NCBI GenBank assembly: GCA_038748065.1
Contig: JBCDJG010000008.1
Location: 35,548 to 99,547 of the forward strand
Source of the DNA: Pseudomonadota bacterium
GTDB lineage: Bacteria; Pseudomonadota; Gammaproteobacteria; Pseudomonadales; Halieaceae
Reading direction: 5' to 3'
Length of the DNA stretch: 64,000 bases
Positions 46,216 through 62,234 of the stretch are shown in pieces. The translations under genes were made by a program, and so were the position numbers. The notes under the pieces are model-generated. The model was given only the letters and a program-made list of their open reading frames with translations, searched no databases and was not told where the DNA came from. Each line of letters begins with the position of its first letter. Positions within the stretch are counted from its first letter, which is position 1.

Positions 46216-47409
46216 TTATCTACTCCAGCGGCGTCTGAGCGCGCGCAGACTCAGGCCGCAGAGGCCAGCGCTCAACACTAACATCGTCCACGCTTGGCCT
46301 AAAGGAATAGGTTCAATGCGGGCTTCGCCGGCTGAACCGGGTGGCGGGTCGATGTTGCGCACGAGGACTTCCGACATTTCCACCACGGTATAGACAATAT
46401 CGATGGGACTGCCATCGGCGAGCCTGCCGACAACCGTACCCCCATCCCCGCCCGGGTTAAGGGTATTGGTGAGCCCACTACCAACCACGGTCACAATTGA
46501 GCCCTCATCAAGGGACCACAACGCCCCCGGAGGAAACTCCCCACCGCTCACAGTAAATCCTGGGGCCTCACTGATTCGTAGGGCGACCGCGCCAACAGCC
46601 GGCTGGAAAATCCCACCACTGATCTCACCTTGACTCTCGTCGATGAAGAACAACGGAAAACGGCTAACGCCGCCACTCGCCGGTGACCCACCAATAAACG
46701 TACCGCCAGTGACCTGCACCGGACCATCAATGGCTACGGCTGTAGCACGGGTACCGTCGGCGTTCAGGCCACCACTGAAGGTGCCGCCGCTGATCTGCGT
46801 ACTGACAAGCGGACCACCCGCATCAAGCCCTACGGAACCGTCGGCAATACCACCGATGCCGTTACCGCCGCTAATTGAGCCCATCGTTACCAGGGTATTG
46901 CATCGGTCGGAGACAATGCCTGCACCCGCGCTGAAATCGATTTGCGCATTTCCCCCGACGATCACACCGCCATTGACCTCAAGCGAGCAGGCAGAAGCCA
47001 CGGGCCGTAGCCGAATCCCAACGCCACCAGTACCCAGGACATTGTTATTGTCACCACCTCGCACATTACCGTCGTTAACGATAACCGCAGTATCGACACC
47101 GCCGATACCCGCACCGGCCTCACCACCGCCAACACTATCATCACCGCCACGAATCGTGCCGCCATTGAGCAAAATGACACTATCGCCGCTGACACTCACC
47201 GCGGTGATCGCATTGGCCATGGCGGGGGCTTGCGCGGCACTCCCTGCCTGGAAATCAACCGTGGTGGCATTGGACACCAGCACATCAGCAAGTGGAGTCG
47301 TCACGGTATTGACCGCGCCGTTGTCAAACACCGTTTGCGCCTGTGCATTACTGACCCCAAGCAAACAAAGGGCGACGGCCAGCCTGCAGCAGAAAAAAGT
47401 GCGGTTCAC
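46216..47409 (-). CDS. Secreted glycine-rich beta-helix repeat protein with C-terminal IPLG / hydrophobic helix / Arg-rich sorting-type tag
   Basis: 397 aa with a signal peptide and repeated xxGGxhxGG coils (NGGTIRGGDD, NDGNVRGGDN, VNGGVIVGGN, ISGGTFSGG, VTGGTFIGG, ISGGIFQP, VSGGEFPPG). The tail is PIPLGQAWTMLVLSAGLCGLSLRALRRRWSR. The start overlaps the upstream stop by 4 nt. Confidence 0.7.
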   Translation of the reverse strand: MNRTFFCCRLAVALCLLGVSNAQAQTVFDNGAVNTVTTPLADVLVSNATTVDFQAGSAAQAPAMANAITAVSVSGDSVILLNGGTIRGGDDSVGGGEAGAGIGGVDTAVIVNDGNVRGGDNNNVLGTGGVGIRLRPVASACSLEVNGGVIVGGNAQIDFSAGAGIVSDRCNTLVTMGSISGGNGIGGIADGSVGLDAGGPLVSTQISGGTFSGGLNADGTRATAVAIDGPVQVTGGTFIGGSPASGGVSRFPLFFIDESQGEISGGIFQPAVGAVALRISEAPGFTVSGGEFPPGALWSLDEGSIVTVVGSGLTNTLNPGGDGGTVVGRLADGSPIDIVYTVVEMSEVLVRNIDPPPGSAGEARIEPIPLGQAWTMLVLSAGLCGLSLRALRRRWSR

Positions 47410-50400
47410 TGCCTCGAATCCCGTGTGCGAAGTGTATTAGCGCCAAGGCTCATCAAAAGCATAAGTAGCATCAACGTTACAGCTCCCCCAAGCGGAATGG
47501 ATTGCGGCAGGAAGAAGCGACTCAAATCCTCGTTCACGGTGAGGCGCAGCACGTCCTGCCCCCCTTCGTTAACCACCTCAAGCGACGCGGCATCAGGTGG
47601 CGCGCCGATGAAACGGAAGTTCATCCCACTGCCCGAAAGGCCACCGGGATCGGTGCGCAGCACGTCCAGGATCTGCCCCTCTGGGGCGGGATAATTGATC
47701 TGCACAATGACCTCGCCATTGATCGTCGCTGTATTGGCATCAATGGCCGCATAGCGCCCCGGCTGACCCAGGTTCTCGCGCGTGGCCCGCGTTGGTCCTT
47801 CGGCGACCAGCACAATGCGGCCATCCGGGCCAACCTGCAGGTCATCGGTACGAATATAGCTCGGATTCAGTGATGCCTCGGCATCCATCGGCAGGCTGGC
47901 GGGATTCTGCAGGCCAATCTCAAGCAGCGGCGTATCGAGGGCCGCGTTGGTGAGGCCCAGCCGGGCGGTGACCAGGCTATCGGCATTGGTGCCATCATCG
48001 GTATACAGCCCAACCACCACTGACTCGCTAACATCGGCGGTGGTGTCTTCAAGCAGCAGGCGGCCGTCGACTATTGCCACCGCATCATTGTCCTTGAGCT
48101 CCGCCTCGGCGATTTCAACACCCGCTGCGACAAGCGTGCTGCCTGTGATGCTGAGAAGCGCCGTCCCCCGGCCAATCGAAGTTTCCGAAACCTCAACCCG
48201 GCTTACTTTGATCTCATCAACTTCCATCTCGCTATCGGTAAAACTAGCGCGCCCAGTGCCGTCAGTCACACCGCCTTCGGTGTTATCGATTCGCATCAGA
48301 GACAAATCAACGGGCGCAAGAGCGCTGGATTCGATTCGCGAGCGGCTCACGGTCAGTTCCACGAGCGAAGGAAGGACTTGCGCACCTGCGGCTTGCGCTT
48401 CGCAGAGCCCAACCTGAAGTTGAACCGCACCTGAACCTAAGCCGTTGTTGAGAAACAGGGAGTCTTCGACTGTGACGTTGACCACGGCTGATGCCAATCC
48501 GTTCTCACCATCAACGTCCGCGTTAAACAGGTTAATCCCGTCTCCGAAGGTGACATGGCGCAGTTCGGCAGTCGCCGAGGCCTCCGCAGTAGTGTTGGAA
48601 CCAAATGCATCAGGGTCTCCAATTAGCAATTCAGTGTCGAGTGTTACACCAGTCAAACGGACAGTCGCTTGGCTCGATCCCCGCGAGTTCGCCGCGTTCA
48701 TGTTGGCGGACGCAATGACGATTTGGCCTCCGCCGCTGAGAACCGCGTCGTCGTCCACCACCAGCTCAGCAACGGCACTGGCAACCGCGCCCGTGTCAGC
48801 CTCCTCGATCAGAACATAGCCTACGCGAGTGAAATCTCCTGTATCGAACTCACCCCCGCTTACCGTCAGTTGGCCCTCAGCAGTCCCTGGGGAGTAGGCT
48901 GCTCCAATACTCGTGATCCCCGGGTTGGGAACCGGTGGAAGGGGTTCTGTTTCGGAGGAACCTGGAGAGCGGAACGTGGTATCGATCAAGGTGGCGCCGC
49001 CCACTGAGGCACCGCCCCCCGCATAACCTGGGCGCAAGACGCCGATCTGAAGGTTGGCTGTGGGCAGGATTTCAACGCCATCGGTCTGCAGACTGCCGCT
49101 GCCGCCATCCACGCCGATGTCAATTTGATAAGCGTTTAGCGGCTCAGGGGCCGACGCGCCACTCGCCTGGGCTTCGCCGCCATTGTTCACCAAAGCTGGC
49201 TCACCGCCAGAAGGTACTCGGTTACCACTCCAGTTGGCAGGGTTAAACCAGTCATCGCTACCACTATTGGTCCACTCGGCGGTTGATGGGGCACCGGTGA
49301 GTTCGAGAATGTACTTCTCCACGCCTGCATCGACTTCAAAACCCGTGGTCGCCGTGAACCCCGGGTTCAAGTTGCGTAACTCGACCGTGGCAAAATCCCC
49401 GCTCAAGCCATCAGCGCTGGCGCTGTTGATCAGCTCAAAACGTGCCGGGCCCTCGGGAATGAAGTCAAAGTCGACAACCAAGGTGCCATCCAGGGTGGCG
49501 CTGCCGACGTCGATGGCACCGTAGTCCCCACTGGCGTCAAACGATACGCCACCTCGCTTTGTCGAGCCCCCGTTGAGCACCACGGTGGCGCCGGGGCCGA
49601 GGTTCATCGTGTCGAACAGAGACAGCCAATGATCGTTGCGCATGAGCCCGCTGCCTACGCCGCTGCCGTTGCTAAAACCGATATTGATGGTACGGGCGCT
49701 CAGGCCCTCCGCCGTGAGAACTGTTCCGGTCGCATCGCCACTGCCGTTGCTGATGCCGATGTCGATCTGGTCAAAGCGGCCAAAAGAGGCCCGGCCTGAG
49801 CCGGATTGCCGGCTGAGATCAATCACCCCGACCGCAGAACCGCTACCATCGCTGACGCCAATCTGGGCGCTGCCGGTCGCGGCATCAGCACGTAGGAATG
49901 AGTCGCCTGTAAGCTCGCCATCGGCATGACCGGCGCCCGTGGCGACGCCGACGGACAGACTGCGGATATCAACGGAGGACTCCAGCTCGGATACGCGGGC
50001 GGTGGCCTGACCATCCCCACGGCTCACCCCCACCTCCAAGCGATCCAGCCTATCAATATCAAGTGTCGGCACCGCAACGGTCGCATCGGCCTGCCCGGTG
50101 CTCTCAGCGACCCCAAACTGTGCAATGGAAAACCTGGGCAACACTAGTCTCAAGTCTGCAGACTGAACGTTACCGTCGATCATAACGCGCCCGTCAGCAT
50201 CGCCAGCAGCGTTAGAGACCCCCACCCGAAGCGGCGTGCCAGCAACACCTAAATCCAGAATGCTCGCGTCTGTATCGAAGCGCAGCACACCCAGCGAAGC
50301 TGCGGTGCCAGAGTTGGTCACGCCAACGTTGACACCCTCTGTGGCAAGCAAGTCCCGGCTGAAGAAATCGGCAAACAGGACAGCTCCCTCGCCACCATCC

Positions 50401-50681
50401 ACCCCGACAAGTAGGTTGCGCACCGTGACATCAACGGCATTGGCACCAAAAACCGCCGTGCCGCCGTTATTAATCGTGGCGTCCATGCCGGCTGAAGGCA
50501 GCGCGTTAGGTGTCCAATTTAGTGGCGCGAACCAGTCGCCTTCGCCGGGGTTGTTCCATTCCTGCGCGCCGGCCGATGCCGCGGCCAGTGCAGTGAGCAG
50601 CAGTGTGCAAGCACGTTTTGTAATCAGTGTGCGTTTATTTGAGCTTAGTCCAAGTGAGAGAGCGTTCTGAAGAAGAGTCAC
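47406..50681 (-). CDS. Large secreted two-module beta-helix repeat protein with the same C-terminal IPLG-type tag
   Basis: 1091 aa with a GTG start and a signal peptide. The module head is duplicated (EWNNPGEGDWFAPLNWTPNALP.. and EWTNSGSDDWFNPANWSGNRVP..). About 8 periodic (V/I)G(V/I)SNGSGxAxG coils are present. The tail is SIPLGGAVTLMLLMLLMSLGANTLRTRDSRQ. Confidence 0.75.
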   Translation of the reverse strand: MTLLQNALSLGLSSNKRTLITKRACTLLLTALAAASAGAQEWNNPGEGDWFAPLNWTPNALPSAGMDATINNGGTAVFGANAVDVTVRNLLVGVDGGEGAVLFADFFSRDLLATEGVNVGVTNSGTAASLGVLRFDTDASILDLGVAGTPLRVGVSNAAGDADGRVMIDGNVQSADLRLVLPRFSIAQFGVAESTGQADATVAVPTLDIDRLDRLEVGVSRGDGQATARVSELESSVDIRSLSVGVATGAGHADGELTGDSFLRADAATGSAQIGVSDGSGSAVGVIDLSRQSGSGRASFGRFDQIDIGISNGSGDATGTVLTAEGLSARTINIGFSNGSGVGSGLMRNDHWLSLFDTMNLGPGATVVLNGGSTKRGGVSFDASGDYGAIDVGSATLDGTLVVDFDFIPEGPARFELINSASADGLSGDFATVELRNLNPGFTATTGFEVDAGVEKYILELTGAPSTAEWTNSGSDDWFNPANWSGNRVPSGGEPALVNNGGEAQASGASAPEPLNAYQIDIGVDGGSGSLQTDGVEILPTANLQIGVLRPGYAGGGASVGGATLIDTTFRSPGSSETEPLPPVPNPGITSIGAAYSPGTAEGQLTVSGGEFDTGDFTRVGYVLIEEADTGAVASAVAELVVDDDAVLSGGGQIVIASANMNAANSRGSSQATVRLTGVTLDTELLIGDPDAFGSNTTAEASATAELRHVTFGDGINLFNADVDGENGLASAVVNVTVEDSLFLNNGLGSGAVQLQVGLCEAQAAGAQVLPSLVELTVSRSRIESSALAPVDLSLMRIDNTEGGVTDGTGRASFTDSEMEVDEIKVSRVEVSETSIGRGTALLSITGSTLVAAGVEIAEAELKDNDAVAIVDGRLLLEDTTADVSESVVVGLYTDDGTNADSLVTARLGLTNAALDTPLLEIGLQNPASLPMDAEASLNPSYIRTDDLQVGPDGRIVLVAEGPTRATRENLGQPGRYAAIDANTATINGEVIVQINYPAPEGQILDVLRTDPGGLSGSGMNFRFIGAPPDAASLEVVNEGGQDVLRLTVNEDLSRFFLPQSIPLGGAVTLMLLMLLMSLGANTLRTRDSRQ

Positions 50682-50720: not shown

Positions 50721-50787
50721 AGTATATTTTCCTGACCCGTTGCAGCGTTTGACGCTGCGTCTCAATTCAGTTGCCGCTGCGTCTCAA
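50721..50787 (-). promoter_or_regulatory. Candidate promoter of the 1091-aa gene: -10-like TATACT (minus strand, 50721-50726) with two perfect 13-bp direct repeats CGCTGCGTCTCAA (50753-50765 and 50775-50787; 22-bp period) over the -35 region
   Basis: Read directly from the sequence in the 152-bp gap between the OmpA-family stop and the 1091-aa start. Confidence 0.35.
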
Positions 50788-50833: not shown

Positions 50834-51826
50834 CTACTGAGCGACGATCTCAACGCGGCGATTGAGTGCTCGCCCTTCTTCGCTGTCGTTAGACGCCAGG
50901 GGGGCAGCAGGACCGATGCCAACCGCTCTCAAACGATCTACAGCCACCGCGTGTTCGTTCACCAGCGCATCAACCACCGAGGCTGCGCGCTCGCCCGATA
51001 AGCCCAGGTTGTAGTCATAGGCACCCTGACTGTCGGTATGCCCAACCACCAGCACCTTCAGCTCCGGGCTGTTAACCAGGGCCTTGGCTATTTCTGATAC
51101 GGCGTCCGTCGAGTCGGGGGTGAGGGTGGAACTGTCGAACTCGAACTGTATGCCATAGAGCGATACCGACCCGGTTCTCTGTATCTCATCGAGCATCTCA
51201 TCTGCGGAGACGAAGGTCAGTGTCGGCTCGAAGTCTTCGATCTCCAGAACCTCAAGATGAATCATCGGCTGATTTCTAATCGCCGTCATTCCGGTCACTA
51301 TGTAGGTGCTCAGCATCGAGACATGGTAGAGGGAATCTCCCTTGATGATCGTGCCGTAAAGGTAGACGGGGTCACGATAGTCACTGGGCAGAATGTACAG
51401 CGACAGGCTATTTCTGAAGGTGACAGGAATACGGTTGCTTTCTTCCCAGATGACGCCACGGGCAAGCTTGGTGTGGCAGTCTTTGCGCGAGCAAGACCAG
51501 ATCGGCTCAAACTCACCAAACTCGGCAAAGGCCAGCTCATAGTTGCGCAGGATCTGCAGTGTTGTCTGGTCAGACTGCCCCATATAGATAATGCGCGTGC
51601 GCTTTCCTTCGGGCTGGGAAAGCTTGGGCTTGGCGCCCTCCATCTCAGTGACAAATAGCCCTTGGTCGAACTGTTTGTAGTCATAGCCAACAATGTAGGT
51701 ACCAGTCACGCGAGGCATCTCCGCGTAATCGCTACTACCGGGCATATCGGCATCCTGAGCAGTGGCATAGCCCGATACAACAAACGCCAGAACAAGCGTG
51801 GCTCTTACGGTCTGTATGATATTCAT
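50834..51826 (-). CDS. OmpA-family peptidoglycan-binding protein with N-terminal DUF4892-like domain
   Basis: 330 aa with a signal peptide and a C-terminal OmpA_C motif (LVVGHTDSQGAYDYNLGLSGERAASV ... NRRVEIV). Confidence 0.85.
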   Translation of the reverse strand: MNIIQTVRATLVLAFVVSGYATAQDADMPGSSDYAEMPRVTGTYIVGYDYKQFDQGLFVTEMEGAKPKLSQPEGKRTRIIYMGQSDQTTLQILRNYELAFAEFGEFEPIWSCSRKDCHTKLARGVIWEESNRIPVTFRNSLSLYILPSDYRDPVYLYGTIIKGDSLYHVSMLSTYIVTGMTAIRNQPMIHLEVLEIEDFEPTLTFVSADEMLDEIQRTGSVSLYGIQFEFDSSTLTPDSTDAVSEIAKALVNSPELKVLVVGHTDSQGAYDYNLGLSGERAASVVDALVNEHAVAVDRLRAVGIGPAAPLASNDSEEGRALNRRVEIVAQ

Positions 51827-51882
51827 ACTGTTATCAGTCTCCTCTTCGGTATTTCCAAGCTCGTTTAGCTTGCATGCTGGAA

Positions 51883-54800
51883 CTAGTTTCTCGAAAGCAG
51901 CTGGTTTCTGAAGTTGGGGAAGTAGCGCTCCACCAATTCCAGATCCATATAGTTGGAGAGCCAGGTCTTTGTATTGGCGTCGTAGTACACGTAGTTCTTA
52001 TGTTCGAGCATCTTTTGCATGAAGAAATCGGCGTCAAGCCACCTGCCCCAGCGATCTGGGTCGATCAAGAGACTCTCCCGCCTCAAACTATTCACACCAT
52101 GATTCCCGGTGCTCATCTGGTCAATGATCCTCCCCAGTCCCAACAGGTCTTCGGTTGGAGAGCCAAAATCATGAATTCGATCCAGATCTAGCAGGCCCGC
52201 CTCCCAATACAGCCCCCTGCGAAAGAAATACACATTGCCCAAATGGACGTCCTCCCAGATCAGGTTTGCCTCCGCAAGCTTCTTGAATAACCTGAGCATG
52301 GCGTGCTGGTATGCACGAGGCAGTCTCTTCATCTGAGGATCCAGTCCGGCGATCTGAAATCCCCTCATCACGTAACCACTCGCGCTTGTTTCCGAGCGCA
52401 CGCGCCGATACTTGATGGTCCTGGCGCCATCAGGGAGTCGCTCCTGTAGAGCGAAGACCAGCTCATTTCCCTTAGTGGATCCAAACTTCCTGAGCGTTTG
52501 GCGACCTTTTCCCATAACAGCGAGGTGCGGGATATCTGCCGCGGCCAGCTTCTGGGAGGTTTCAATCGTCTGCTCGACATCCTCAATGGCCTGGTCGGGG
52601 CCCTTTCTGGCTTTATACAGTTTCGCAATGACATCGCGCCGCCCCTGAATCTCATGGACCACCGCGGCAGAACCTTCACCAAGACGAGCGCCAAGCGCCA
52701 GTGATTCTTGTTGACCGCCGGCGGCATTCCTGGCGTCGAGCTGTAGGCCGTCCCCGCTTTCTCCGGGGAACCACAAGGGGCGCTCTGTGGTGATGACTCT
52801 CTCATCATCCAATACCGTACCCATCTCCTTGAAGCGGCTAACCTCCTCATCCCACCACCTCGCGCTATCCAGGTTCCGAAGCTGAATTTCATCCTGCAGG
52901 GCCTGCCCCACTCGCTGCGCCCTCGTCAGCAGACCCTCGGGCAGAAAACGATTGAACGCTGCCTGATCTGCTTCATCGAAGATACTCATGACCGCGATCA
53001 AGCGATCGTGCTCCTCCCGAGTGAGCAGTCGAAATGCATCCAGCCCGCCCGCTTCCACAGTGTCCAGCAGTTGGTTGAGAACCCTGGCGTCATCAATGCT
53101 CTGAATCTGCGCGGGCGTCACTAGCGCCTGTGGAGGCACCGGGATGATGGGCGCAGCCCCGTCGCTGACGGCGGGAAACATGTCCTTTATCGGCGAGCTA
53201 AAATAGGTCAGATTCTTCGCGCTCAACCTGAAGGCCTGGCCAAAGGCGATCGCCTCCGCCGAGAAGCCGATGACACCGGCTGAGATTTCTGCGACCAGCA
53301 TCCAGCCGGGCTTCTGCTTGGCAACAGCATCGTCGAATCGTTCATGCGACAACACGCCCAGCGTGCCCCGCGCAAATCTCACCTCATCTCTCTGGGCGAT
53401 GTATTGACCCCACTTGCGATAGACAGAATCGCTTAGGGCCATACTCTCGCCGATCAGCGCCGCCGCGCGAAGCCCTACAACACCCGAGTTGGCGGCATAG
53501 GGTGTCGTTCTGATCACAAAGGCGACAGCGGGCCCAGAAGCGACAACGGAAAGCCCTGTAATCACAGCGATGACTACATCCTTCTCGGCGTCCTGGAGAT
53601 CATCTGCAAACTGCAGCTCGCTGAGCTTCTGCTCGATGCTGTTCATATGATTCCGGCCCAAATCTTCCGGTACCCACCAGGTGTCATTTCCGATTGTCTC
53701 GAGCCGTACAAGATCAGGAATGATTGGCTTTTTCAGGGGCTCGACATAGGAGCCGATGATCTCCATTAACTCGCGCAGGTCTTCAACATCCGTGCCGGCT
53801 AGCTTCTCTAGAGCATCCCTGACATGACTTTCCAGGGACCTGGCGGCGGCCTGCGCCAGCGTGCTTTTGTCCTGCTCGTATCCCCCAAGGCTTTGCTGTA
53901 CAAACACCTCGGCACTGGCTGCGCCCAGGGTGCTCGCTTCGACGCCGTCGATTTCGATCGGCAGTGAAAAGATGGCTGCGTCTCTGAATCTCAGCGCCGG
54001 GCCAACCGTCTCCTCCCACCATCGATTGGCGGCATCCGGATCTGAGAGCTCACGGCTCTGAGCTTCAAGACCTGCAAGTTGATCCTCCAGCTGATTCATC
54101 AACTCGTCGCGCAGCAAGAGCATCGACGCGTAATCACCCAGGGTCACCATCACGTCTGAATTATTCCAGCTACCGCCCGCATCAATCTCACCGACCAGGC
54201 GCGTGGTGGGCGTGCTCCGATCAACCCGAATCTGCGCCATCCGTCCTGCCTCGGAGAAGGCGTTCCACCAGGAATGATCGACGTCTTCAGGTGCCCTGGT
54301 CACTGCGTAGGCTCTAACGGGCGCAACGATAGGGGTGGACACAGGCAGTGAAACAAAAAGCTCGTATCCGGCGGGTAGATTCAGCGTTTTGTTCGTATCT
54401 GCATTCATTTTCCCAATTACAGCAGCGGGCGAGCGATAGACTTCGCTGCGGAACACAATCCCTTCTGCTCCAGCCACTCGCTTCAGATTCACGCTGGAGC
54501 TGCCCTCTACACTCAGTCGTTCGGCTTGCTCCGCAACCGGGTCCCAGCGGGCTATGCTGACGTCCAAAACGTCTTGATTGATGTCGTGGTCCAGTTCAAC
54601 CTCGAAGGCGAAGTGATCGCTTTCGAAGATCGTATTGAGTGGAATAAACGACCCATCAGGTAACGCGCGCACCACGCGCAAATCGGCATAGGCCGCCGGC
54701 CGATTCGGGGAACGGCCATATACCCAGGTAACGACTTGACCTGCCAGCTTGAACTCATACACGCCGGGCATGGCGCCCTTTCTTGGACTGGCTTCGATTT

Positions 54801-55833
54801 GTACGAGATCAAATTCATTTACCAGGTCAAATGCCGTCTCAACATCGACCCCTCTGGATCGCAGCTTTCCGAAATAGACGTCACTTAATGACTCTCCCCT
54901 CCGCTGCGGCAGCTTGAAAGGGTTTGCCGGTGTGAACGTCGTCAGGATCTCATAGTCCATCCAGCCCGCTTCGAACTCCAGTTCCGGATAACGTGTTAGC
55001 TTGGCGATGCCCTCGCCCATGACATAAAGGATTCTCGGGTCCCTATGCATATTGCTGCGAACTTCCTCGGGCAGGTTGATCACCGCCCCCAAGACCGAGA
55101 TGATCCTCGAGGTACGCCTTCCTTCCACGTCGGGGTAGACGGTGATAACAGGCTCCGAATCCGGCCATTCAATGGCAAGCGGTTCAAACCACGGCGTCAT
55201 ATCCAGCCGGGCCTGCTCGCCACTGACCGGGTCAATCTCGAGTATCTTTGCACTTTTAAGAAAATCATCGAGCTGAGACGGGGAACCGGGCCCGTCTTTG
55301 ACATCGAGCACACCATCCGCGAGCTCTGCCCAGGCTTCCCATGCAAACTCCCGCTCCTCTTGCTTGGCCACGTCCAGGAAGGTGAAAGCGTGAGCCGCAA
55401 GTTCCTCCCGTTGCTGAATGAGCTTGCTCGCGATGTCCCTATAACCCGGCGCTCCCGGCACCTCATCCCGCAGCAAAGCCAGGTAACGTCTGGCGGTGTC
55501 CAACTCAAGCTCCCAGTGCAGCTCGATGACCTCCATGGCAATCTCTTCCTGCTCGGGGGTGACCAGTTGTCCCGCCCCCGGTGCGTCATTTAAGGATGCC
55601 CTGATCGCTGCCAGCTTGCGGTTAGCCTGCTCAAGCGGCCTCATGACTTCCTGGCCTTTCAAGCGACCCTCGAAGTCCCGCTCCCAAATCGATTCCGACC
55701 TCTCCAGATAGGCATCGAACACGTCGACCAGAGTCGGCAGCAGCTTCAAGAGCTCGGCATTGGTAGACTGGGCTGCTGCGGCAGCCGCCAGCCAGAAAAG
55801 CGGTAGAACGAGAACGGCGCGGAAAACGCTCAC
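51883..55833 (-). CDS. 1316-aa envelope protein: signal peptide, unrecognised domain of about 730 aa, TM segments, C-terminal protein-kinase-like (APH/choline/Kdo-kinase type) domain
   Basis: GTG start with the signal MSVFRAVLVLPLFWLAAAAAAQS. The hydrophobic segments DVVIAVITGLSVVASGPAVAFVI and GWMLVAEISAGVIGFSAEAIAFG map to nt 53239-53580. The C-terminal motifs are LGEGSAAVV, VIAKLYK, WEDVHLGNVYF and LLDLDRI. Confidence 0.65.
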   Translation of the reverse strand: MSVFRAVLVLPLFWLAAAAAAQSTNAELLKLLPTLVDVFDAYLERSESIWERDFEGRLKGQEVMRPLEQANRKLAAIRASLNDAPGAGQLVTPEQEEIAMEVIELHWELELDTARRYLALLRDEVPGAPGYRDIASKLIQQREELAAHAFTFLDVAKQEEREFAWEAWAELADGVLDVKDGPGSPSQLDDFLKSAKILEIDPVSGEQARLDMTPWFEPLAIEWPDSEPVITVYPDVEGRRTSRIISVLGAVINLPEEVRSNMHRDPRILYVMGEGIAKLTRYPELEFEAGWMDYEILTTFTPANPFKLPQRRGESLSDVYFGKLRSRGVDVETAFDLVNEFDLVQIEASPRKGAMPGVYEFKLAGQVVTWVYGRSPNRPAAYADLRVVRALPDGSFIPLNTIFESDHFAFEVELDHDINQDVLDVSIARWDPVAEQAERLSVEGSSSVNLKRVAGAEGIVFRSEVYRSPAAVIGKMNADTNKTLNLPAGYELFVSLPVSTPIVAPVRAYAVTRAPEDVDHSWWNAFSEAGRMAQIRVDRSTPTTRLVGEIDAGGSWNNSDVMVTLGDYASMLLLRDELMNQLEDQLAGLEAQSRELSDPDAANRWWEETVGPALRFRDAAIFSLPIEIDGVEASTLGAASAEVFVQQSLGGYEQDKSTLAQAAARSLESHVRDALEKLAGTDVEDLRELMEIIGSYVEPLKKPIIPDLVRLETIGNDTWWVPEDLGRNHMNSIEQKLSELQFADDLQDAEKDVVIAVITGLSVVASGPAVAFVIRTTPYAANSGVVGLRAAALIGESMALSDSVYRKWGQYIAQRDEVRFARGTLGVLSHERFDDAVAKQKPGWMLVAEISAGVIGFSAEAIAFGQAFRLSAKNLTYFSSPIKDMFPAVSDGAAPIIPVPPQALVTPAQIQSIDDARVLNQLLDTVEAGGLDAFRLLTREEHDRLIAVMSIFDEADQAAFNRFLPEGLLTRAQRVGQALQDEIQLRNLDSARWWDEEVSRFKEMGTVLDDERVITTERPLWFPGESGDGLQLDARNAAGGQQESLALGARLGEGSAAVVHEIQGRRDVIAKLYKARKGPDQAIEDVEQTIETSQKLAAADIPHLAVMGKGRQTLRKFGSTKGNELVFALQERLPDGARTIKYRRVRSETSASGYVMRGFQIAGLDPQMKRLPRAYQHAMLRLFKKLAEANLIWEDVHLGNVYFFRRGLYWEAGLLDLDRIHDFGSPTEDLLGLGRIIDQMSTGNHGVNSLRRESLLIDPDRWGRWLDADFFMQKMLEHKNYVYYDANTKTWLSNYMDLELVERYFPNFRNQLLSRN

Positions 55834-55840
55834 AGCCCGT

Positions 55841-57508
55841 TCACTCGCTGTCTCCTGCGTTGCCTAGACCCCAGCGCTTCTCCAGGTCGTAGCGCCAGGC
55901 GATGTCAGACATCATTCTGTTTTTTTGTTCCGCACTCCTGGGACTGGACAGAATGTTATCTCTGAGGACCGCCGTCTCATCGATGAACGCACGCATTCGT
56001 TCGGCCATGACGCTCGCGGGGCTGCCAAAGGGGCCATCGGGCGCCTTCAGCATAGACACCGACAGATACACGTTTACCTCCAGTTGATCCCACCCGGAGG
56101 ACGGAACGTCTGCAGGGCTGCCCGCCGGATACATGAGCGTCATCTCTCGAATCAGCCTATCCGCGCCCTTCTCCTGGCTGCTGGCGCTCCCCCAGTACGC
56201 GGCGTTCATCAAGCCAACCTGGCATTCGGCCCAGGCCATACTGTCCCTACCGCCACTGGGAAAGCGCCACAGATAGTCTGACAACTCTTCAAGGAAAGTC
56301 GATTCGGCCTCGCTGGCTGCGTCAAACAGCTCGGCCACTAGCTGCTGAGTGTTCTCAGTGAGGTCCACGCGATCCAGCGAGCGAGGGTCCGGCCTTTCTG
56401 TTCCTACGCAATAGGCATTAGCCTGTGCAGGCACGTAAGCCAGCTTCGAATAAACGACCGGATCGGTCAGGTCGAGCGCCCGGAGTAGGTCAATTCTGAC
56501 ATCCGCCACGTCAGAAGGATCAACCGAGGATTGAGGTTTGCCCAAGTCAAACCGTCCTTCGGGCCTGCCTTCAGGATAACGCGCCACGGCCGCCTCGAGT
56601 TCGCTCAAGTAGCGCGCTATCGCTGACGGTTCGTCCGCGGCCACCAGCAATTGCCACGCCTTGCGCACATCGGGTGGATCGTAAAGATAGCCAGCTCCCG
56701 GCGCTGCGGGCGCGATGAGGGGGCTCAGTTTTGTAGCGTTCCGCGCTTTTCGGCTTCGTTCAGACTCTGCAGCCTGCTCGCCCAACCATTCAAGGTTTGC
56801 CTGCGTCCAGGCACGCAGCAAGGCCAGTGCTGCTCGATCGAAGCCTGTTTCAAGAATACGGTTGCGCCGATTCATGGCAACGGTCCAAACCAGCTGGTTC
56901 AGGGCAATATCAAAGTTCCCAAAGTGGCCGTATTCCGACCAGGTACCGCCATGGCCTTCAAAGGCCTGTAATTCAACATCATCGTGCCGCTGATTCAACA
57001 ACCATCGAAGCCCAGCTCCCGCATACAGCAGGCCGGCGGTTTCCGCATCACCGTCTAGGATGGCATTCATCACCATCTGAGCATGCCGTCGACCACCAAT
57101 GCGAACACCCTCTGGCGGCATACCGAACATGATCGCCAGGTCACGCAATGTGTCAGGCTCGTTGACAATAGTGGCGGGGAAGTGGATGCCCAGGCTGACC
57201 GGCGGGGAAACCTCCCCTGAGGCCAGGTCATAGAACACCAGCTTGTACTCCTTGATGCCTCTCCCGGGTCGATCTGGCCACTGCTCTACGATAACTGTTG
57301 CAGAGGGGCCCAGTGGATAGTCTTTAAAAGTCTGCGGGTCGATTTGTTCCTGCAGCTGCTTGACCTGTTCTGGTCCCGCGTATGGCAGGCTCAACAAATC
57401 TGCAAAAACCGGCGTCACAATGAAAGAAAAAAAACTCGCTAGCGCCGCACATGGCCGGCGTCTGGCGGGTCGGTAGTCCATTGAAAAGAAGAGAATTTTC
57501 TTCGCCAT
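55841..57508 (-). CDS. Secreted 555-aa protein of unknown function
   Basis: The ATG at 57508 (MAKKILFF..) is preceded by GGGGGAAAG and followed by a signal-like segment ALASFFSFIVTPVFA. Its stop lies 7 nt before the start of the 1316-aa gene. The ORF track starts at 57592. Confidence 0.65.
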   Translation of the reverse strand: MAKKILFFSMDYRPARRRPCAALASFFSFIVTPVFADLLSLPYAGPEQVKQLQEQIDPQTFKDYPLGPSATVIVEQWPDRPGRGIKEYKLVFYDLASGEVSPPVSLGIHFPATIVNEPDTLRDLAIMFGMPPEGVRIGGRRHAQMVMNAILDGDAETAGLLYAGAGLRWLLNQRHDDVELQAFEGHGGTWSEYGHFGNFDIALNQLVWTVAMNRRNRILETGFDRAALALLRAWTQANLEWLGEQAAESERSRKARNATKLSPLIAPAAPGAGYLYDPPDVRKAWQLLVAADEPSAIARYLSELEAAVARYPEGRPEGRFDLGKPQSSVDPSDVADVRIDLLRALDLTDPVVYSKLAYVPAQANAYCVGTERPDPRSLDRVDLTENTQQLVAELFDAASEAESTFLEELSDYLWRFPSGGRDSMAWAECQVGLMNAAYWGSASSQEKGADRLIREMTLMYPAGSPADVPSSGWDQLEVNVYLSVSMLKAPDGPFGSPASVMAERMRAFIDETAVLRDNILSSPRSAEQKNRMMSDIAWRYDLEKRWGLGNAGDSE

Positions 57509-57695
57509 CTTTCCCCCAAATCCCCCTGATCTGAGTTGCCGCAAATGGACGCTGTGCAACCAATATAGGTCATGTTGGATACAGCTGCACACGTGCCGCT
57601 AACTGGCAAGCTTTCCCCCACAGACGCCGCATGCCGTTGGCAATCCCTGTATCATCCGGCAAGCTACCGCCTGATCGACCAACGGAGAACGCCGC

Positions 57696-59698: not shown

Positions 59699-61222
59699 TC
59701 AATCCATTAGATACTTACGCGCCATGGCTCCGGGCGAGTCGCGCTTCTCAACGAGTCGATAGTTGCTGTCCAGGTAACGCAGAAATTCTGCCTCTGGCTC
59801 GAGGTGCGCTGACAGATACCAGAAACCGTTGGCCTTCTGTGCTGATAGAAAGCTCAGGAGGTCATCCACATCCTCTGTCTGGCCAGCGAGCTTTACCGCT
59901 TTGTTCGAAGAGTCGAAGGCCTTGAAGTAATAATCAAAGTACCTCGGGTTGTGGGCGTAAAAAACAATCGGCAATGGCGTTGCGGGTCCGTCTGTCTGAA
60001 GGACAAAGGCTGCAGTCTCGCGGAACTGTGTCTTTTTAATCGAGCTGTAATAGCCGCCGTCTGCGAGCAAGGCATGCGAGAAGGCAAGCAAGACGGCGAT
60101 CGGCCAAAGCGCCCCAAATACAGCAGGCTGCATCAGGCGCATGCCGCGCACGAGTATTAAGTAGCTGGGTGCGAGCAGAATAATAAGATTGCGCATGGTA
60201 ACCACCGGGTGCGACATCAGTGACTGCATGTAAGAGGCGATAAAGGGCGCGATTAGCCAAAGCAGGATGAGCAGATCCGGCTCGCTCAGCGCTTCTGGCC
60301 GCCATCCCGCCTTCGACCAACGGCGAACAAAGTGTCGGCAAAAATGAGTCAAAAACACAAGGTAGGGGACCAGGATCAACAGCATCTGCCAGCCCTGCAT
60401 CAGCGGGAATGCGAACTCGGCATAGCCCACTAGCATGCCCAGCAGGGTGGGTTCTTCTATCCAGCTGCTCGTGCGCGAAGTGAACTGGGAGACCATTGTC
60501 GGAATCCAGGGCAGGTATGCAGCGATAACCAGGAAACAGAGTAAGGACCACCTCGACAGGGCTCGAAGCCCATGGAAACACAGCGCCAAAAACGTGTAGC
60601 CCATCAGCAGCACGACCAACAGAAGGCCAAAATAGTGTAAATACGCCGTCGCCACAGCGGCGACGAGATACATTACCGCTGCAGTCTTTGACAGCGGACG
60701 GTTATGCTTCAATTCATCAAGCAACTGGACCCAGTAGTAAACCAGGGCGATCGAGCCCAGCAGCAGGAAAGCGTAAGGCCTTGCTTCCTGGCTGTAGTAA
60801 AGGGCAGGCCAGGAGAGGGCCATTAAGGCCGCGACAGCCAAACCCGTTGCCTTGTCATAGAGCCGACGGCCCAACAAGGCCGCAAAGAAGACCGCCAGCA
60901 CGCCCGCCAGAACAGATGGCGCACGTAAGGCCAGCTCAGAATCGCCAAAGCTTCGAATCTGCAGGTTCAGTAGAATGAAGTAGCCCGGAGGATGAACATC
61001 GCCACTGATTCTCCGGATCGCTTCGTCAATACCACCCACGTGGGTCCGCGCCCAACTCGAGAGCTCATCATTCCACAGCGATTCGGCGTCTAGCTCCCAA
61101 ATCCGTAAGACGGCAGAGAGCATCAAAATAGCGAATAAAACGCCGCTGAACGGTGAGAGCTGGGATCGAATGCGTGCTCCGACTGAGCTATAGCCTTCGT
61201 CGACAGGCTCAGGTGGGAGCAT
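59699..61222 (-). CDS. GT-C fold glycosyltransferase, family 39 / ArnT-PMT-like
   Basis: More than 10 TM helices and a first-loop acidic motif (ESLWNDELSSWA). I prefer the ATG at 61222 (MLPPEP); the ORF-track extension to 61405 would overlap the upstream gene by 197 nt. Confidence 0.75.
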   Translation of the reverse strand: MLPPEPVDEGYSSVGARIRSQLSPFSGVLFAILMLSAVLRIWELDAESLWNDELSSWARTHVGGIDEAIRRISGDVHPPGYFILLNLQIRSFGDSELALRAPSVLAGVLAVFFAALLGRRLYDKATGLAVAALMALSWPALYYSQEARPYAFLLLGSIALVYYWVQLLDELKHNRPLSKTAAVMYLVAAVATAYLHYFGLLLVVLLMGYTFLALCFHGLRALSRWSLLCFLVIAAYLPWIPTMVSQFTSRTSSWIEEPTLLGMLVGYAEFAFPLMQGWQMLLILVPYLVFLTHFCRHFVRRWSKAGWRPEALSEPDLLILLWLIAPFIASYMQSLMSHPVVTMRNLIILLAPSYLILVRGMRLMQPAVFGALWPIAVLLAFSHALLADGGYYSSIKKTQFRETAAFVLQTDGPATPLPIVFYAHNPRYFDYYFKAFDSSNKAVKLAGQTEDVDDLLSFLSAQKANGFWYLSAHLEPEAEFLRYLDSNYRLVEKRDSPGAMARKYLMD

Positions 61223-62234
61223 CAGCGCGAGTTTCCGCCGGGCGCTTCTCGTCCAGCCGGTCGGACAGTTCGGGGGGCAGAAGTAAGGGCTCTTCCTCCC
61301 GCCGCTGCCGAAAATAGTCCACAACGAAAGACCGCATCTCGGGTTTGTCTGTGGACCACTGCCAGCAGCCCTGTTTGTGCAAGGAAATATCTCGCACAGG
61401 GTCAAAGTCGAATTGGTGGAATCCGAGATAGCGGTGCGCGTACCGTTTGTTCATTACGCTACCGTGCGCCAGGTGGAAGGCGGTGCCGTCTATGAAACCT
61501 ACACGGCCTCCCACACGCCGGTAAAGCTCATCCCCCCACGCCAGATAGCTGCCCCACATCGAAGCGTCGAACTGGTAGGCCGCAAGAAAATCCTGTCCGC
61601 GGCCGTAAACGGCGGACAGAAAAGCCCTGTCGCCGGAGCCGAGAATCAGCCTGTCATAAAGGCCCAGGTCGGCGATAAGCTCCCGTCTCGCAGCCCAGGC
61701 AAAACCCGGAACCGAGCCATTCGCCTCGGAAACGCCGCACCCGGTAAATATGCGCTCTGCAATCACCGGGTCTTCGAGCACAGCGACTGCGGCGTGCAGG
61801 TGGCGATGGGTTTGCGAGCTTTCTGGCAGGATTTCGCAGAATTGATGAAAGGGCTGAATCAATCTGTAAGACTGCAGAGCTTCCCTGGCACGCGCAGCCC
61901 ACCCAGGTTCCTCAAAAACAATGTCACAGTCCAGCCAGGCAACGTAACGGCATTCGGCCCCAAGGGCAGCGAGGCCGATGTTCAGGAGCCTCTCCTTCTG
62001 CCACATGACATCGCCGCCGCGTACCTGAATAAGAATCTCCGCCGCGCCTTCGTCGAGCTGGAACGGGTCATCACCGAAGGCGAGTTCTACACAAACTAAG
62101 GGTACTTCCAGGCGCTCGCGGAAAATGCGGTAGTTGCTCAATCTGGACGGGTATCTCGCGGGATTGAACAGGCAGGTGACGGCCCAGAAATCAGAACAAT
62201 TGCGCTCCGACGCCCTGTAATTAACGACCCGCAC
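61209..62234 (-). CDS. Hypothetical GT-A-like glycosyltransferase (DxD motif)
   Basis: The GTG at 62234 is preceded by GGAGG with a 5-nt spacer. WLDCDIVF is a DxD-like motif. I do not recognise the family with confidence. Confidence 0.45.
   Translation of the reverse strand: MRVVNYRASERNCSDFWAVTCLFNPARYPSRLSNYRIFRERLEVPLVCVELAFGDDPFQLDEGAAEILIQVRGGDVMWQKERLLNIGLAALGAECRYVAWLDCDIVFEEPGWAARAREALQSYRLIQPFHQFCEILPESSQTHRHLHAAVAVLEDPVIAERIFTGCGVSEANGSVPGFAWAARRELIADLGLYDRLILGSGDRAFLSAVYGRGQDFLAAYQFDASMWGSYLAWGDELYRRVGGRVGFIDGTAFHLAHGSVMNKRYAHRYLGFHQFDFDPVRDISLHKQGCWQWSTDKPEMRSFVVDYFRQRREEEPLLLPPELSDRLDEKRPAETRADAPT

What the first reader, a model, noticed from the sequence alone, without database searches (positions are those of the whole stretch)
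50834..57508. Uncharacterised three-gene envelope module: secreted 555-aa protein, 1316-aa TM protein with kinase-like tail, OmpA-family protein
Three co-directional minus-strand genes are separated by only 7 and 56 nt, so they are probably one transcript. All three products carry N-terminal export signals. I recognise no family for the 555-aa protein or for the first 730 aa or so of the 1316-aa protein. The third product anchors to peptidoglycan through an OmpA_C domain. This combination looks like an envelope-spanning sensing or signalling assembly that I cannot match to any described system. Parts of the block are lower in G+C than their surroundings. Hand counts of 60-nt lines give 48% at 51901, 43% at 51961 and 45% at 54361, against 65% at 9001, which hints at foreign origin.
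Basis: partly seen in the sequence, partly recalled or inferred. Interest (0 to 1): 0.8.

Follow-up and report, generated by a model that had tools for sequence, protein, structure and literature searches.

The report
Undescribed membrane kinase with secreted partner
The three genes are real, and the core is a conserved, unnamed pair: a large exported membrane protein ending in an intact protein-kinase-like domain, plus a secreted partner protein. The peptidoglycan-binding OmpA-type protein is added only in this lineage, and the module most likely senses something in the cell envelope and signals inward by phosphorylation.

Summary
Three co-directional minus-strand ORFs (555, 1316 and 330 aa) lie 7 and 56 nt apart, each with an N-terminal export signal, and the third has an OmpA_C domain.

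The "kinase-like tail" is real. A 26-sequence family profile hits PDB protein kinases (NleH1 E=1.5e-6, Aurora A 5e-6). G-loop Gly, K1071, D1195, N1200 and D1216 are invariant. The AF2 model matches RIO, WaaP, Bud32, OspG, NleH and HopBF1 folds.

The 1316-aa protein belongs to an unnamed family: 288 cluster representatives among 1.84 billion proteins. None of the six members scanned full length has a Pfam match. The conserved core is a juxtamembrane helical domain, a hydrophobic region and a C-terminal kinase-like domain. The ectodomain model (pLDDT 81) has no PDB fold match.

A homologue of the 555-aa protein sits next to or near the kinase gene in 9 of 11 informative loci, in varying gene order, so the pair is the real unit. 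The OmpA gene follows only here and in one relative (55% identity). The foreign-origin hint is weak: GC is 56.9% against 58.6%, and GC3 is normal.

Best reading: a receptor-type transmembrane kinase with a periplasmic co-sensor, analogous in layout to YfiR-YfiN-YfiB. Substrate, signal and membrane topology remain untested.

The parts
55841..57508 (-). Gene 1: secreted partner protein, 555 aa, no known family. Conserved motifs: NExDTLxDL, GxRRH, GGTW, LEPGFERAA, DPSE.
   Evidence: ORF. No Pfam, NCBIfam, PADLOC or PDB-sequence match. Homologues at 24-34% identity to it lie beside the kinase gene in L001, L009, L010, L012 and L013. More distant homologues are in L004 (hhalign 98.2%, E=4e-14), L015 and L017.
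57401..57508 (-). Signal peptide of gene 1 (aa 1-36, predicted cut VFA|D)
   Evidence: Hydrophobic segment aa 21-39, KD 1.86. D37 is invariant and opens the first conserved block, after variable hydrophobic N-termini, in six homologues. The NCBI start (P0003, 517 aa) omits it.
51883..55833 (-). Gene 2: 1316-aa receptor-like membrane protein with a C-terminal protein-kinase-like domain
   Evidence: ORF. Identical to NCBI 'hypothetical protein AAGI11_05060' from a Pseudomonadota MAG. Family of 288 representatives with E<=1e-3.
55771..55833 (-). Signal peptide of gene 2 (aa 1-21)
   Evidence: KD 2.05 over aa 3-21, ending AAAAAQ. 86 of 119 full-length family members have a comparable N-terminal hydrophobic stretch.
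53581..55770 (-). Extracytoplasmic region (aa 22-751): helical bundle (22-~195), beta-sandwich domains (~197-564) and a juxtamembrane helical domain 'N4' (565-745)
   Evidence: AF2 model, mean pLDDT 80.9. Foldseek against PDB gives no hit below E=0.012, only generic tandem beta-sandwich adhesin resemblance. N4 is conserved family-wide, while the regions before it are detected consistently only in the close subfamily and patchily elsewhere.
53230..53580 (-). Hydrophobic membrane region (aa 752-868) with up to three helices (752-775, 783-803, 844-868) and the family-wide motif [RK]FAxGxxxVLGxxR (aa 819-832)
   Evidence: Hydropathy. A821 is invariant in 34 sequences. Modelled as long helices, with pLDDT 84-93 for helices 2 and 3. 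The number of true membrane spans is not resolved.
52834..53100 (-). Helical linker domain between membrane and kinase (aa 912-1000; motif VExGGLxAFRxL)
   Evidence: AF2 helices, pLDDT 72-95. Conserved in the close subfamily.
51886..52743 (-). Protein-kinase-like domain (aa 1031-1316). G-loop LGEGSAAVV (1051-1059), K1071 (52621-52623), D1195 (52249-52251), N1200 (52234-52236), D1216 (52186-52188).
   Evidence: G1054, K1071, D1195, N1200 and D1216 are invariant in 26 diverse members. Family profile against PDB: NleH1 1.5e-6, Aurora A 5e-6, PLK4 1e-5 among the 60 best hits listed. In the AF2 model most 10-residue blocks of this part have pLDDT >=84, and the residues sit on the canonical elements. 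Foldseek: RIOK3, WaaP, PRPK/Bud32, OspG, NleH2, HopBF1.
50834..51826 (-). Gene 3: 330-aa exported OmpA-family protein. Signal peptide aa 1-23, uncharacterised N-domain aa 24-220 with conserved C112/C117, OmpA_C aa 226-328 (50843-51151).
   Evidence: Pfam OmpA 4.6e-20. PDB YiaD 3e-20. NCBIfam hits (YiaD, PA1041, YfiB and others) are all below their cut-offs and cover only the C-terminal domain. A full-length orthologue at 55% identity follows the kinase gene in L010/L011.

Best explanation
This is a receptor-type transmembrane kinase module.

Gene 2 encodes a Sec-exported, type-I-like inner-membrane protein. Its N-terminal ~730 residues lie outside the cytoplasm: a helical bundle, beta-sandwich domains and a juxtamembrane helical domain. 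A conserved hydrophobic region crosses the membrane. Its C-terminal ~290 residues form a catalytically intact protein-kinase-like domain in the cytoplasm.

Gene 1 encodes a periplasmic protein made in step with the kinase protein (7-nt gap here, 4-nt overlap in five of the relatives). It probably binds the ectodomain as a co-sensor or regulator.

In this lineage gene 3 adds a periplasmic, peptidoglycan-binding OmpA-type protein. It would tie the assembly to the cell wall, or report on the wall's state.

A signal in the envelope would change the ectodomain-partner interaction, be passed through the conserved membrane and juxtamembrane segment, and switch the kinase, which then phosphorylates a cytoplasmic target. 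The layout (periplasmic protein, inner-membrane signalling enzyme, OmpA-like protein, in that gene order) parallels YfiR-YfiN-YfiB, with a kinase in place of the diguanylate cyclase.

Shown: gene structure, export signals, kinase-like fold with intact catalytic residues, family membership, and pair conservation.

Inferred: topology, complex formation, signalling direction, and a protein (rather than sugar or lipid) substrate.
For: - Kinase domain: five catalytic-signature residues are invariant in 26 diverse members. The profile hits PDB kinases at 1e-6 to 1e-5. The confident AF2 model puts K1071 on beta3, D1195/N1200 after alphaE and D1216 after beta8. Foldseek top hits are all PKL folds.
- Export: signal peptides on all three proteins and on 86 of 119 full-length family members.
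- Receptor-like pattern of conservation: the juxtamembrane domain, membrane region and kinase are conserved family-wide, while the regions before N4 are detected consistently only in the close subfamily.
- Partner linkage: a homologue is adjacent upstream in 7 loci, adjacent downstream in L004, and one gene further downstream in L017. That makes 9 of 11 informative loci, at kinase identities down to about 26%.
- Trio: it recurs in L010/L011 with unrelated flanking genes.
- Coupling: no terminator-like site in the 7-nt or 56-nt gap.
- Analogy: the YfiBNR mechanism is described in PMC4887326 and PMC4655355.
Against: - Topology is unresolved. Hydrophobic helices 2 and 3 are only moderately hydrophobic (KD 0.5-1.9) and carry conserved charges. 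In most relatives helices 1 and 2 are contiguous. A two-span topology would place the kinase outside the cytoplasm, where there is no ATP.
- No substrate, phosphatase, FHA protein or regulator is consistently encoded nearby.
- Structural neighbours include sugar and lipid kinases (WaaP). Weak Pfam signals are to YrbL, APH and Kdo rather than Pkinase, so a non-protein substrate is possible.
- No physical evidence for a partner-ectodomain complex.
- L003 and L008 lack a detectable partner.
- The OmpA protein is absent from most loci.
Confidence: 0.55

Rival explanations
1. Envelope-biogenesis kinase. The C-terminal domain phosphorylates a sugar or lipid-linked envelope precursor at the inner face of the membrane, as WaaP and KdkA do for LPS core. 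The large exported region and the partner act as scaffold or coupling to an extracytoplasmic assembly step rather than as a sensor.
For: WaaP is the second-best structural match (E=1.3e-4). Sub-threshold Pfam hits among 26 family kinase domains are to Kdo/WaaP (2), APH (2) and YrbL (4), and none to Pkinase. The window context is rich in envelope genes: a PMT_2 glycosyltransferase at 59699-61405 and secreted beta-helix-like proteins downstream.
Against: The best sequence-profile hits are protein kinases, namely NleH1, Aurora A and PLK4. No glycosyltransferase, flippase or LPS gene is conserved beside the pair in other loci. The variable ectodomain with a conserved kinase fits receptors better.
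Confidence: 0.15
2. Exported toxin or effector. The protein leaves the cell. The hydrophobic helical region is a translocation (pore-forming) domain that delivers the NleH/OspG/HopBF1-like kinase into a target cell's cytosol. The 555-aa protein is a secreted binding or chaperone component.
For: The closest solved sequence relative is the effector kinase NleH1. OspG, NleH2 and HopBF1 give the highest target-normalised TM-scores (0.56-0.63). There is a Sec signal plus an internal, only moderately hydrophobic helical hairpin. Some relatives appear to carry extra enzyme-like C-terminal modules, or two kinase domains; this rests on reading motifs in P0019, P0016 and P0020, without a domain search.
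Against: No secretion-system genes are conserved nearby. The kinase end is the conserved part and the N-terminal end the variable part, the reverse of polymorphic toxins. No small immunity-type gene follows. The first hydrophobic helix (KD 2.03 over 24 residues) would act as a stop-transfer anchor during Sec export. The ectodomain shows no fold similarity to known toxin delivery or receptor-binding domains.
Confidence: 0.1
3. Chance adjacency: three unrelated envelope genes that merely sit next to each other, with no joint function.
For: The OmpA gene is missing from most loci that carry the pair. OmpA_C proteins are very common.
Against: The pair is conserved in 9 of 11 loci, with overlapping or near-overlapping reading frames. 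The same trio, in the same order and with a full-length 55%-identical OmpA protein including its unusual N-domain, recurs in L010/L011 with different neighbours.
Confidence: 0.05

Closest known systems
Bacterial Hanks-type receptor Ser/Thr kinases (PknB, PrkC, StkP)
   Same: A membrane protein that couples an extracytoplasmic sensor region to a cytoplasmic kinase with G-loop, beta3 Lys, catalytic Asp/Asn and a DFG-type Asp. Envelope or cell-wall sensing is the usual role (established knowledge).
   Different: The orientation is reversed: here it is signal peptide, then sensor, then membrane, then C-terminal kinase. The kinase domain does not match Pfam Pkinase at all. There are no PASTA or other known sensor domains. 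There is an obligate secreted partner.
Minimal or atypical PKL kinases: NleH1/2, OspG, HopBF1, RIO, Bud32/PRPK, WaaP/Kdo kinase
   Same: These are the best sequence (NleH1, E=1.5e-6) and structural (RIOK3, WaaP, PRPK, OspG, NleH2, HopBF1) neighbours of the C-terminal domain. The catalytic motif D-x-H-x-G-N is of the APH/RIO/Kdo type.
   Different: Those are small soluble proteins or type III effectors without an export signal, ectodomain or membrane region. Identity is only 12-18% and E-values are modest. This domain also has a family-specific C-terminal extension (DADFFMQKMLEHK...YFPxFR).
YfiR-YfiN-YfiB (TpbB) tripartite envelope signalling system
   Same: Same gene order and same cast: periplasmic protein, inner-membrane signalling enzyme with a periplasmic domain, and an OmpA/Pal-like peptidoglycan-binding protein (PMC4887326, PMC4655355). 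The OmpA_C domain of gene 3 gives a sub-threshold NCBIfam YfiB hit (84.9 bits against a cut-off of 128).
   Different: No sequence homology outside OmpA_C. The output is a kinase, not a GGDEF cyclase. The partner is about three times larger than YfiR. Gene 3 has no lipobox and has a 200-aa extra domain. The OmpA component is dispensable in most lineages. The analogy is an inference and was not tested.
Eukaryotic receptor kinases (RTKs, plant RLKs)
   Same: The topology: cleaved signal peptide, large ectodomain, membrane anchor, juxtamembrane segment and C-terminal kinase.
   Different: No homology beyond the PKL superfamily. The host is bacterial and the kinase is a minimal atypical type.
SrfA of the SrfABC system (PKL-like domain, TM, lipocalin domain)
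   Same: Another recently noted bacterial membrane protein with a kinase-like domain, encoded with partner proteins (bioRxiv 10.64898/2026.09.18.752743).
   Different: In SrfA the kinase-like domain is N-terminal, lacks kinase motifs and is proposed to be convergent, and the protein has no signal peptide. The architecture and partners are different.

Membership tests
Protein-kinase-like (PKL) superfamily | Gly-rich loop, beta3 Lys, catalytic-loop Asp and Asn five residues apart, and a metal-binding Asp (DFG position) | tested here: met
   G1054, K1071, D1195, N1200 and D1216 are invariant in 26 diverse family members. K, D, N and D are also invariant in 34 sequences.
Protein-kinase-like (PKL) superfamily | Bilobal kinase fold | tested here: met
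   In the AF2 model most 10-residue blocks across the domain have pLDDT >=84, with an N-lobe of five strands plus alphaC and a helical C-lobe. The 12 Foldseek hits with E<=1e-3 are all kinase folds. This is a predicted structure, not an experimental one.
Protein-kinase-like (PKL) superfamily | Significant profile similarity to known kinases | tested here: met
   Family profile against PDB: NleH1 1.5e-6, Aurora A 5.1e-6, PLK4 1.3e-5.
Hanks-type Ser/Thr kinases (Pfam PF00069 Pkinase) | Match to the Pkinase model above its gathering score | tested here: not met
   No Pkinase hit for the window protein at E<=0.1, for five relatives, or for any of 26 isolated kinase domains at E<=1.
NleH/OspG/HopBF1 effector kinases | Small (~170-300 aa) soluble minimal kinase delivered by type III secretion | tested here: not met
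   The domain is the C-terminus of a 1316-aa protein with a Sec signal and membrane region. Structural identity is only 13-18%. No T3SS context appeared among the genes scanned at 45-62 kb.
Kdo/WaaP lipopolysaccharide kinases (PF06293) | Match to the family model; LPS-core gene context | tested here: not met
   Only 2 of 26 domains give sub-threshold hits (best E=0.021). WaaP is a structural neighbour, but no LPS-core genes are conserved nearby.
OmpA family (gene 3) | OmpA_C peptidoglycan-binding domain | tested here: met
   PF00691, 72.2 bits against a cut-off of 27.2. Aligns end to end with YiaD, OprF, Pal and YfiB C-domains.
YfiB / Pal / YiaD lipoproteins (gene 3) | Lipobox Cys after the signal peptide; full-length match to the equivalog model | tested here: not met
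   No Cys near the cleavage site (ATA|QD). All NCBIfam equivalog scores are below their cut-offs and confined to the C-terminal ~100 aa.
YfiBNR-type tripartite signalling system | Periplasmic regulator binds both the inner-membrane enzyme and the OmpA-like protein | not testable with these tools
   Only gene order and predicted locations are comparable.
Anti-phage defence systems (PADLOC) | Match of the large proteins to a defence-system model | tested here: not met
   No hit for the 555-aa or 1316-aa protein. Only generic MotB/ZorB-type hits to the OmpA_C domain.

The most novel reading that the evidence does not exclude
The family is a previously unrecognised class of bacterial receptor kinases. 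It has a eukaryote-like type-I topology, a minimal RIO/NleH-like catalytic domain and an obligatory secreted co-receptor. It would form a separate transmembrane phospho-signalling route, alongside two-component and Hanks-type systems, in Planctomycetota and some Pseudomonadota. In this lineage it is wired to peptidoglycan through a dedicated OmpA-type protein.
Probability: 0.4. Interest if true: 0.75.

Novelty: new variant of a known kind. Interest (0 to 1): 0.6.

Why it matters
Bacterial transmembrane signalling is usually credited to histidine kinases, chemoreceptors, ECF/anti-sigma pairs, c-di-GMP enzymes and Hanks-type kinases.

Here a family of several hundred sequence clusters has no Pfam or NCBIfam model in any member scanned and is annotated 'hypothetical'. 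It joins a large fold-novel exported region to an intact atypical kinase and travels with a dedicated secreted partner.

If it is a receptor kinase, it adds a new input-output design. It also gives the minimal NleH/OspG/HopBF1-like kinases, so far known mainly as effectors, a possible housekeeping relative in free-living bacteria.

The finding is directly testable: four point mutants, one topology reporter and one pull-down. The limits are that everything beyond fold and conservation is inference, and that the organisms are uncultured MAGs.

Tried and rejected
1. Word-indexed homology searches gave almost nothing: two, one and one hits. They wrongly suggested an orphan. The exhaustive HMMER search was needed (after two failed submissions).
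2. The search for related loci on 185,579 species genomes found only two loci. The metagenome scan gave five loci.
The partner's fold therefore remains unknown. The profile against PDB and Pfam gave only noise.
4. Rosetta-stone test: no partner-like region is fused inside any of the 152 family proteins.
5. Upstream ~500-aa genes in L003 and L008 were tested as divergent partners and rejected (hhalign probability <1%; iterated profile).
6. Foreign origin or a genomic island is not supported. There are no tRNA genes in the window, GC3 is normal and the GC deficit is small.
7. Defence-system membership is rejected.
8. The two downstream genes (1091 and 397 aa) were considered as further members of the module. 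They are not conserved next to the trio in L010/L011.
9. Topology by hydropathy and charge bias across 34 relatives was inconclusive.
10. Literature searches found no description of this architecture. The library is limited, so absence there is not proof.
Full report
**Observation.**
The three ORFs exist as described, all on the minus strand: 55841-57508 (555 aa from ATG 57508; the open frame extends to a GTG at 57592), 51883-55833 (1316 aa) and 50834-51826 (330 aa). The gaps are 7 and 56 nt.

No terminator-like site lies in either gap. A GAGGAGA ribosome-binding site precedes the third gene. The second gene starts 7 nt after the stop of the first, with no convincing Shine-Dalgarno sequence at normal spacing, which suggests translational coupling.

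All three products begin with export signals. For the first gene, NCBI's annotation (P0003, 517 aa) starts 38 codons further in and loses the signal. Six homologues all have a short, variable hydrophobic N-terminus followed by an invariant Asp that opens the first conserved block.

The OmpA_C domain of the third protein is solid: Pfam 4.6e-20, PDB YiaD 3e-20. That protein has no lipobox and carries an unassigned 200-residue N-domain.

**Composition.**
The block is 56.9% G+C against 58.6% for the window. Third-position G+C of the three genes is within about 1.2 SD of the 43 genes in the window. There are no tRNA genes in the window. I see no real evidence of foreign origin.

**The large protein is not an orphan.**
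Pfam, NCBIfam and PADLOC give nothing for the 555-aa and 1316-aa proteins. The word-indexed search of 5.8 billion proteins found only the protein itself (a Pseudomonadota MAG, 'hypothetical protein') and one Planctomycetota relative at 35% identity.

An exhaustive HMMER profile search of 1.84 billion cluster representatives changed the picture. It found 288 representatives at E<=1e-3, 156 at <=1e-10 and 32 at <=1e-30, mostly 1300-2600 aa long. None of the five relatives scanned full length has any Pfam match.

Segment-wise profiles show which parts are conserved across the family: a helical domain next to the membrane (aa 561-745), the hydrophobic region (746-880) and the C-terminal domain (1041-1316). 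The regions before aa 561 are detected consistently only in about seven close relatives and patchily elsewhere. Of 119 full-length members, 86 have an N-terminal signal-like segment.

**The kinase-like tail is real.**
- In an alignment of 26 diverse C-terminal domains, exactly five columns are invariant: a G-loop glycine (G1054), K1071, D1195, N1200 and D1216. These are the beta3 lysine, the catalytic Asp and Asn five residues apart (EDVHLGN, the D-x-H-x-G-N form typical of APH/RIO/Kdo-type kinases) and the DFG-position Asp.
- A profile of this alignment hits solved kinases: NleH1 at 1.5e-6, Aurora A at 5e-6 and PLK4 at 1e-5. In total 641 chains score E<10, and the 60 best listed are NleH1, Aurora A and PLK4.
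- An AF2 model of aa 740-1316 (34-sequence alignment, mean pLDDT 78, most blocks of the kinase part at pLDDT >=84) places these residues on the canonical elements.
- Its best Foldseek matches in the PDB are RIOK3, WaaP, PRPK/Bud32, ROP kinases, VRK, OspG, HopBF1, NleH2 and Rio1 (E 1e-4 to 3e-3).
- No member matches Pfam Pkinase. The only sub-threshold Pfam signals are YrbL, APH and Kdo, which I recall as fellow members of the kinase clan.

The domain is therefore a distinct, probably active, family within the protein-kinase-like superfamily. It is nearest to the 'minimal' atypical kinases and is not a Hanks-type kinase.

**The exported region is fold-novel at the level I could test.**
The AF2 model of aa 22-880 (mean pLDDT 81) shows four parts: an N-terminal helical bundle, a beta-sandwich region, a helical juxtamembrane domain and long hydrophobic helices. 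Foldseek against the PDB gives nothing better than E=0.012, namely generic tandem beta-sandwich resemblance to streptococcal adhesins.

**The conserved unit is a pair.**
A 530-547-aa homologue of gene 1 (24-34% identical to it, 27-47% among themselves) lies immediately upstream of the kinase gene in L001, L009, L010/L011, L012 and L013/L014. In all of these except L012 it overlaps the kinase gene by 4 nt.

With an iterated partner profile, more distant family members also have a partner:
- L004: the partner is directly downstream (hhalign 98.2%, E=4e-14; its kinase is 26% identical to the window's).
- L015: upstream of P0012 (E=3e-52).
- L017: one gene beyond P0016 (E=3e-32).

Two loci with long flanks (L003, L008) have no detectable partner. 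That makes nine of eleven informative loci, across at least two phyla, with rearranged gene order. This is strong evidence of a functional pair. The partner itself matches no Pfam family or solved structure by sequence. I could not model it with an alignment.

**The OmpA gene is a lineage-specific addition, but not an accident.**
A 330-aa protein that is 55% identical over its full length, including the unusual N-domain with two conserved cysteines, follows the kinase gene in L010/L011. This is the closest relative (kinase 45%, partner 34% identical), and there the flanking genes are unrelated to those of the window. The other loci have no OmpA gene.

**Mechanism.**
The best-supported reading is a receptor-type transmembrane kinase. 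It has an exported sensor region with a stoichiometric periplasmic partner, a conserved membrane and juxtamembrane transmission segment (motif [RK]FAxGxxxVLGxxR, with A821 invariant), a helical linker and a cytoplasmic kinase. In this lineage an OmpA-type protein links the assembly to peptidoglycan.

The gene order and cast parallel YfiR-YfiN-YfiB. In that system an OmpA/Pal-like protein sequesters a periplasmic repressor of an inner-membrane enzyme (PMC4887326, PMC4655355). This is an analogy from the literature, not a tested homology.

**Main weakness: topology.**
The first hydrophobic helix is clearly membrane-like (KD 2.0). The second and third are moderate and carry conserved charges, and in most relatives the first two are contiguous. 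One or three spans put the kinase in the cytoplasm. Two spans would put it outside. I favour a cytoplasmic kinase because an intact ATP-dependent active site is conserved.

**Rivals.**
- A WaaP-like kinase for envelope glycolipids (rank 2).
- An exported toxin whose hydrophobic hairpin delivers an NleH-like kinase into target cells.

Several points argue against the toxin reading: the kinase end is conserved while the N-terminal end varies, the strong first helix would act as a stop-transfer anchor, no secretion or immunity genes are conserved nearby, and the ectodomain shows no toxin-like fold.

**Novelty.**
The kinase superfamily, OmpA_C domains and tripartite envelope signalling are all known. 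What appears undescribed is the family itself, its architecture (signal peptide, novel ectodomain, membrane region, C-terminal minimal kinase) and its dedicated secreted partner. The six members scanned full length have no curated family model, the source annotations read 'hypothetical protein', and three literature searches found no description. I rate it a new variant of a known kind, with interest 0.6.

Noticed in passing
window 46216-50681 (minus strand): Two further genes lie directly downstream of the trio (1091 aa and 397 aa, overlapping by 4 nt). They encode signal-peptide proteins rich in Gly/Ala/Ser/Thr/Val with a repetitive, beta-helix-like look and no Pfam or NCBIfam match. Both end in the same tail: I-P-L-G, a hydrophobic helix, then a basic cluster (…SIPLGGAVTLMLLMLLMSLGANTLRTRDSRQ; …EPIPLGQAWTMLVLSAGLCGLSLRALRRRWSR). 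This looks like a PEP-CTERM/IPTL-CTERM-type sorting signal of an unassigned kind.
   Followed up: partly
window 57394-57508: The public annotation of gene 1 (517 aa, AAGI11_05065) starts 38 codons downstream of ATG 57508 and so removes the signal peptide. Comparison with six homologues supports the longer form.
   Followed up: yes
L001 6736-8016; L009 4946-7648; L012 3202-5997: In three Planctomycetota-like loci a Hanks-type Pkinase gene lies one to three genes upstream of the partner-kinase pair, on the same strand. ECF sigma factor genes are also close in L001 and L009. This could be a signalling cascade, or simply the high density of such genes in these genomes. L001 and L009 may share synteny.
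   Followed up: no
P0019 (2633 aa), P0016 (1891 aa), P0020 (1717 aa): Some family members seem to carry extra C-terminal modules. P0019 has two kinase-like domains (the second read by eye from its WEDGHFYN and AGVLDHGR motifs) and, between them, a segment with a nucleotidyltransferase-like GS…DxD motif. P0016 and P0020 end in a region with a DGHHR/EGHHR motif reminiscent of ParB/sulfiredoxin-type domains. Pfam finds nothing in them, and these readings are by eye only.
   Followed up: no
L017 7501-9810: In the P0016 locus an uncharacterised 769-aa gene sits between the kinase gene and the partner homologue, overlapping the kinase gene by 4 nt. It may be a third component in that lineage.
   Followed up: no
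window 50745-50761 (minus strand), in the 152-nt gap after gene 3: A 6-bp GC-rich hairpin (GCAGCG-TCAAA-CGCTGC) follows the OmpA gene but has no T-run. It is unclear whether transcription stops here or continues into the 1091-aa gene.
   Followed up: partly
window 50834-51826, aa 24-220 of gene 3: The N-terminal domain of the OmpA-type protein has conserved EGKRTRIIY and RNY…FGE…SC…C motifs and two invariant cysteines. It has no Pfam or PDB sequence match and is conserved at about 50% identity in L010. It may be the part that contacts the kinase or partner proteins.
   Followed up: partly
window 45167-46189 (minus strand): An AraC-family regulator (HTH_18 plus an AraC_binding_2-like domain; best NCBIfam resemblance FeaR, below cut-off) ends the same-strand run of genes downstream of the module. 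It may regulate this region.
   Followed up: no
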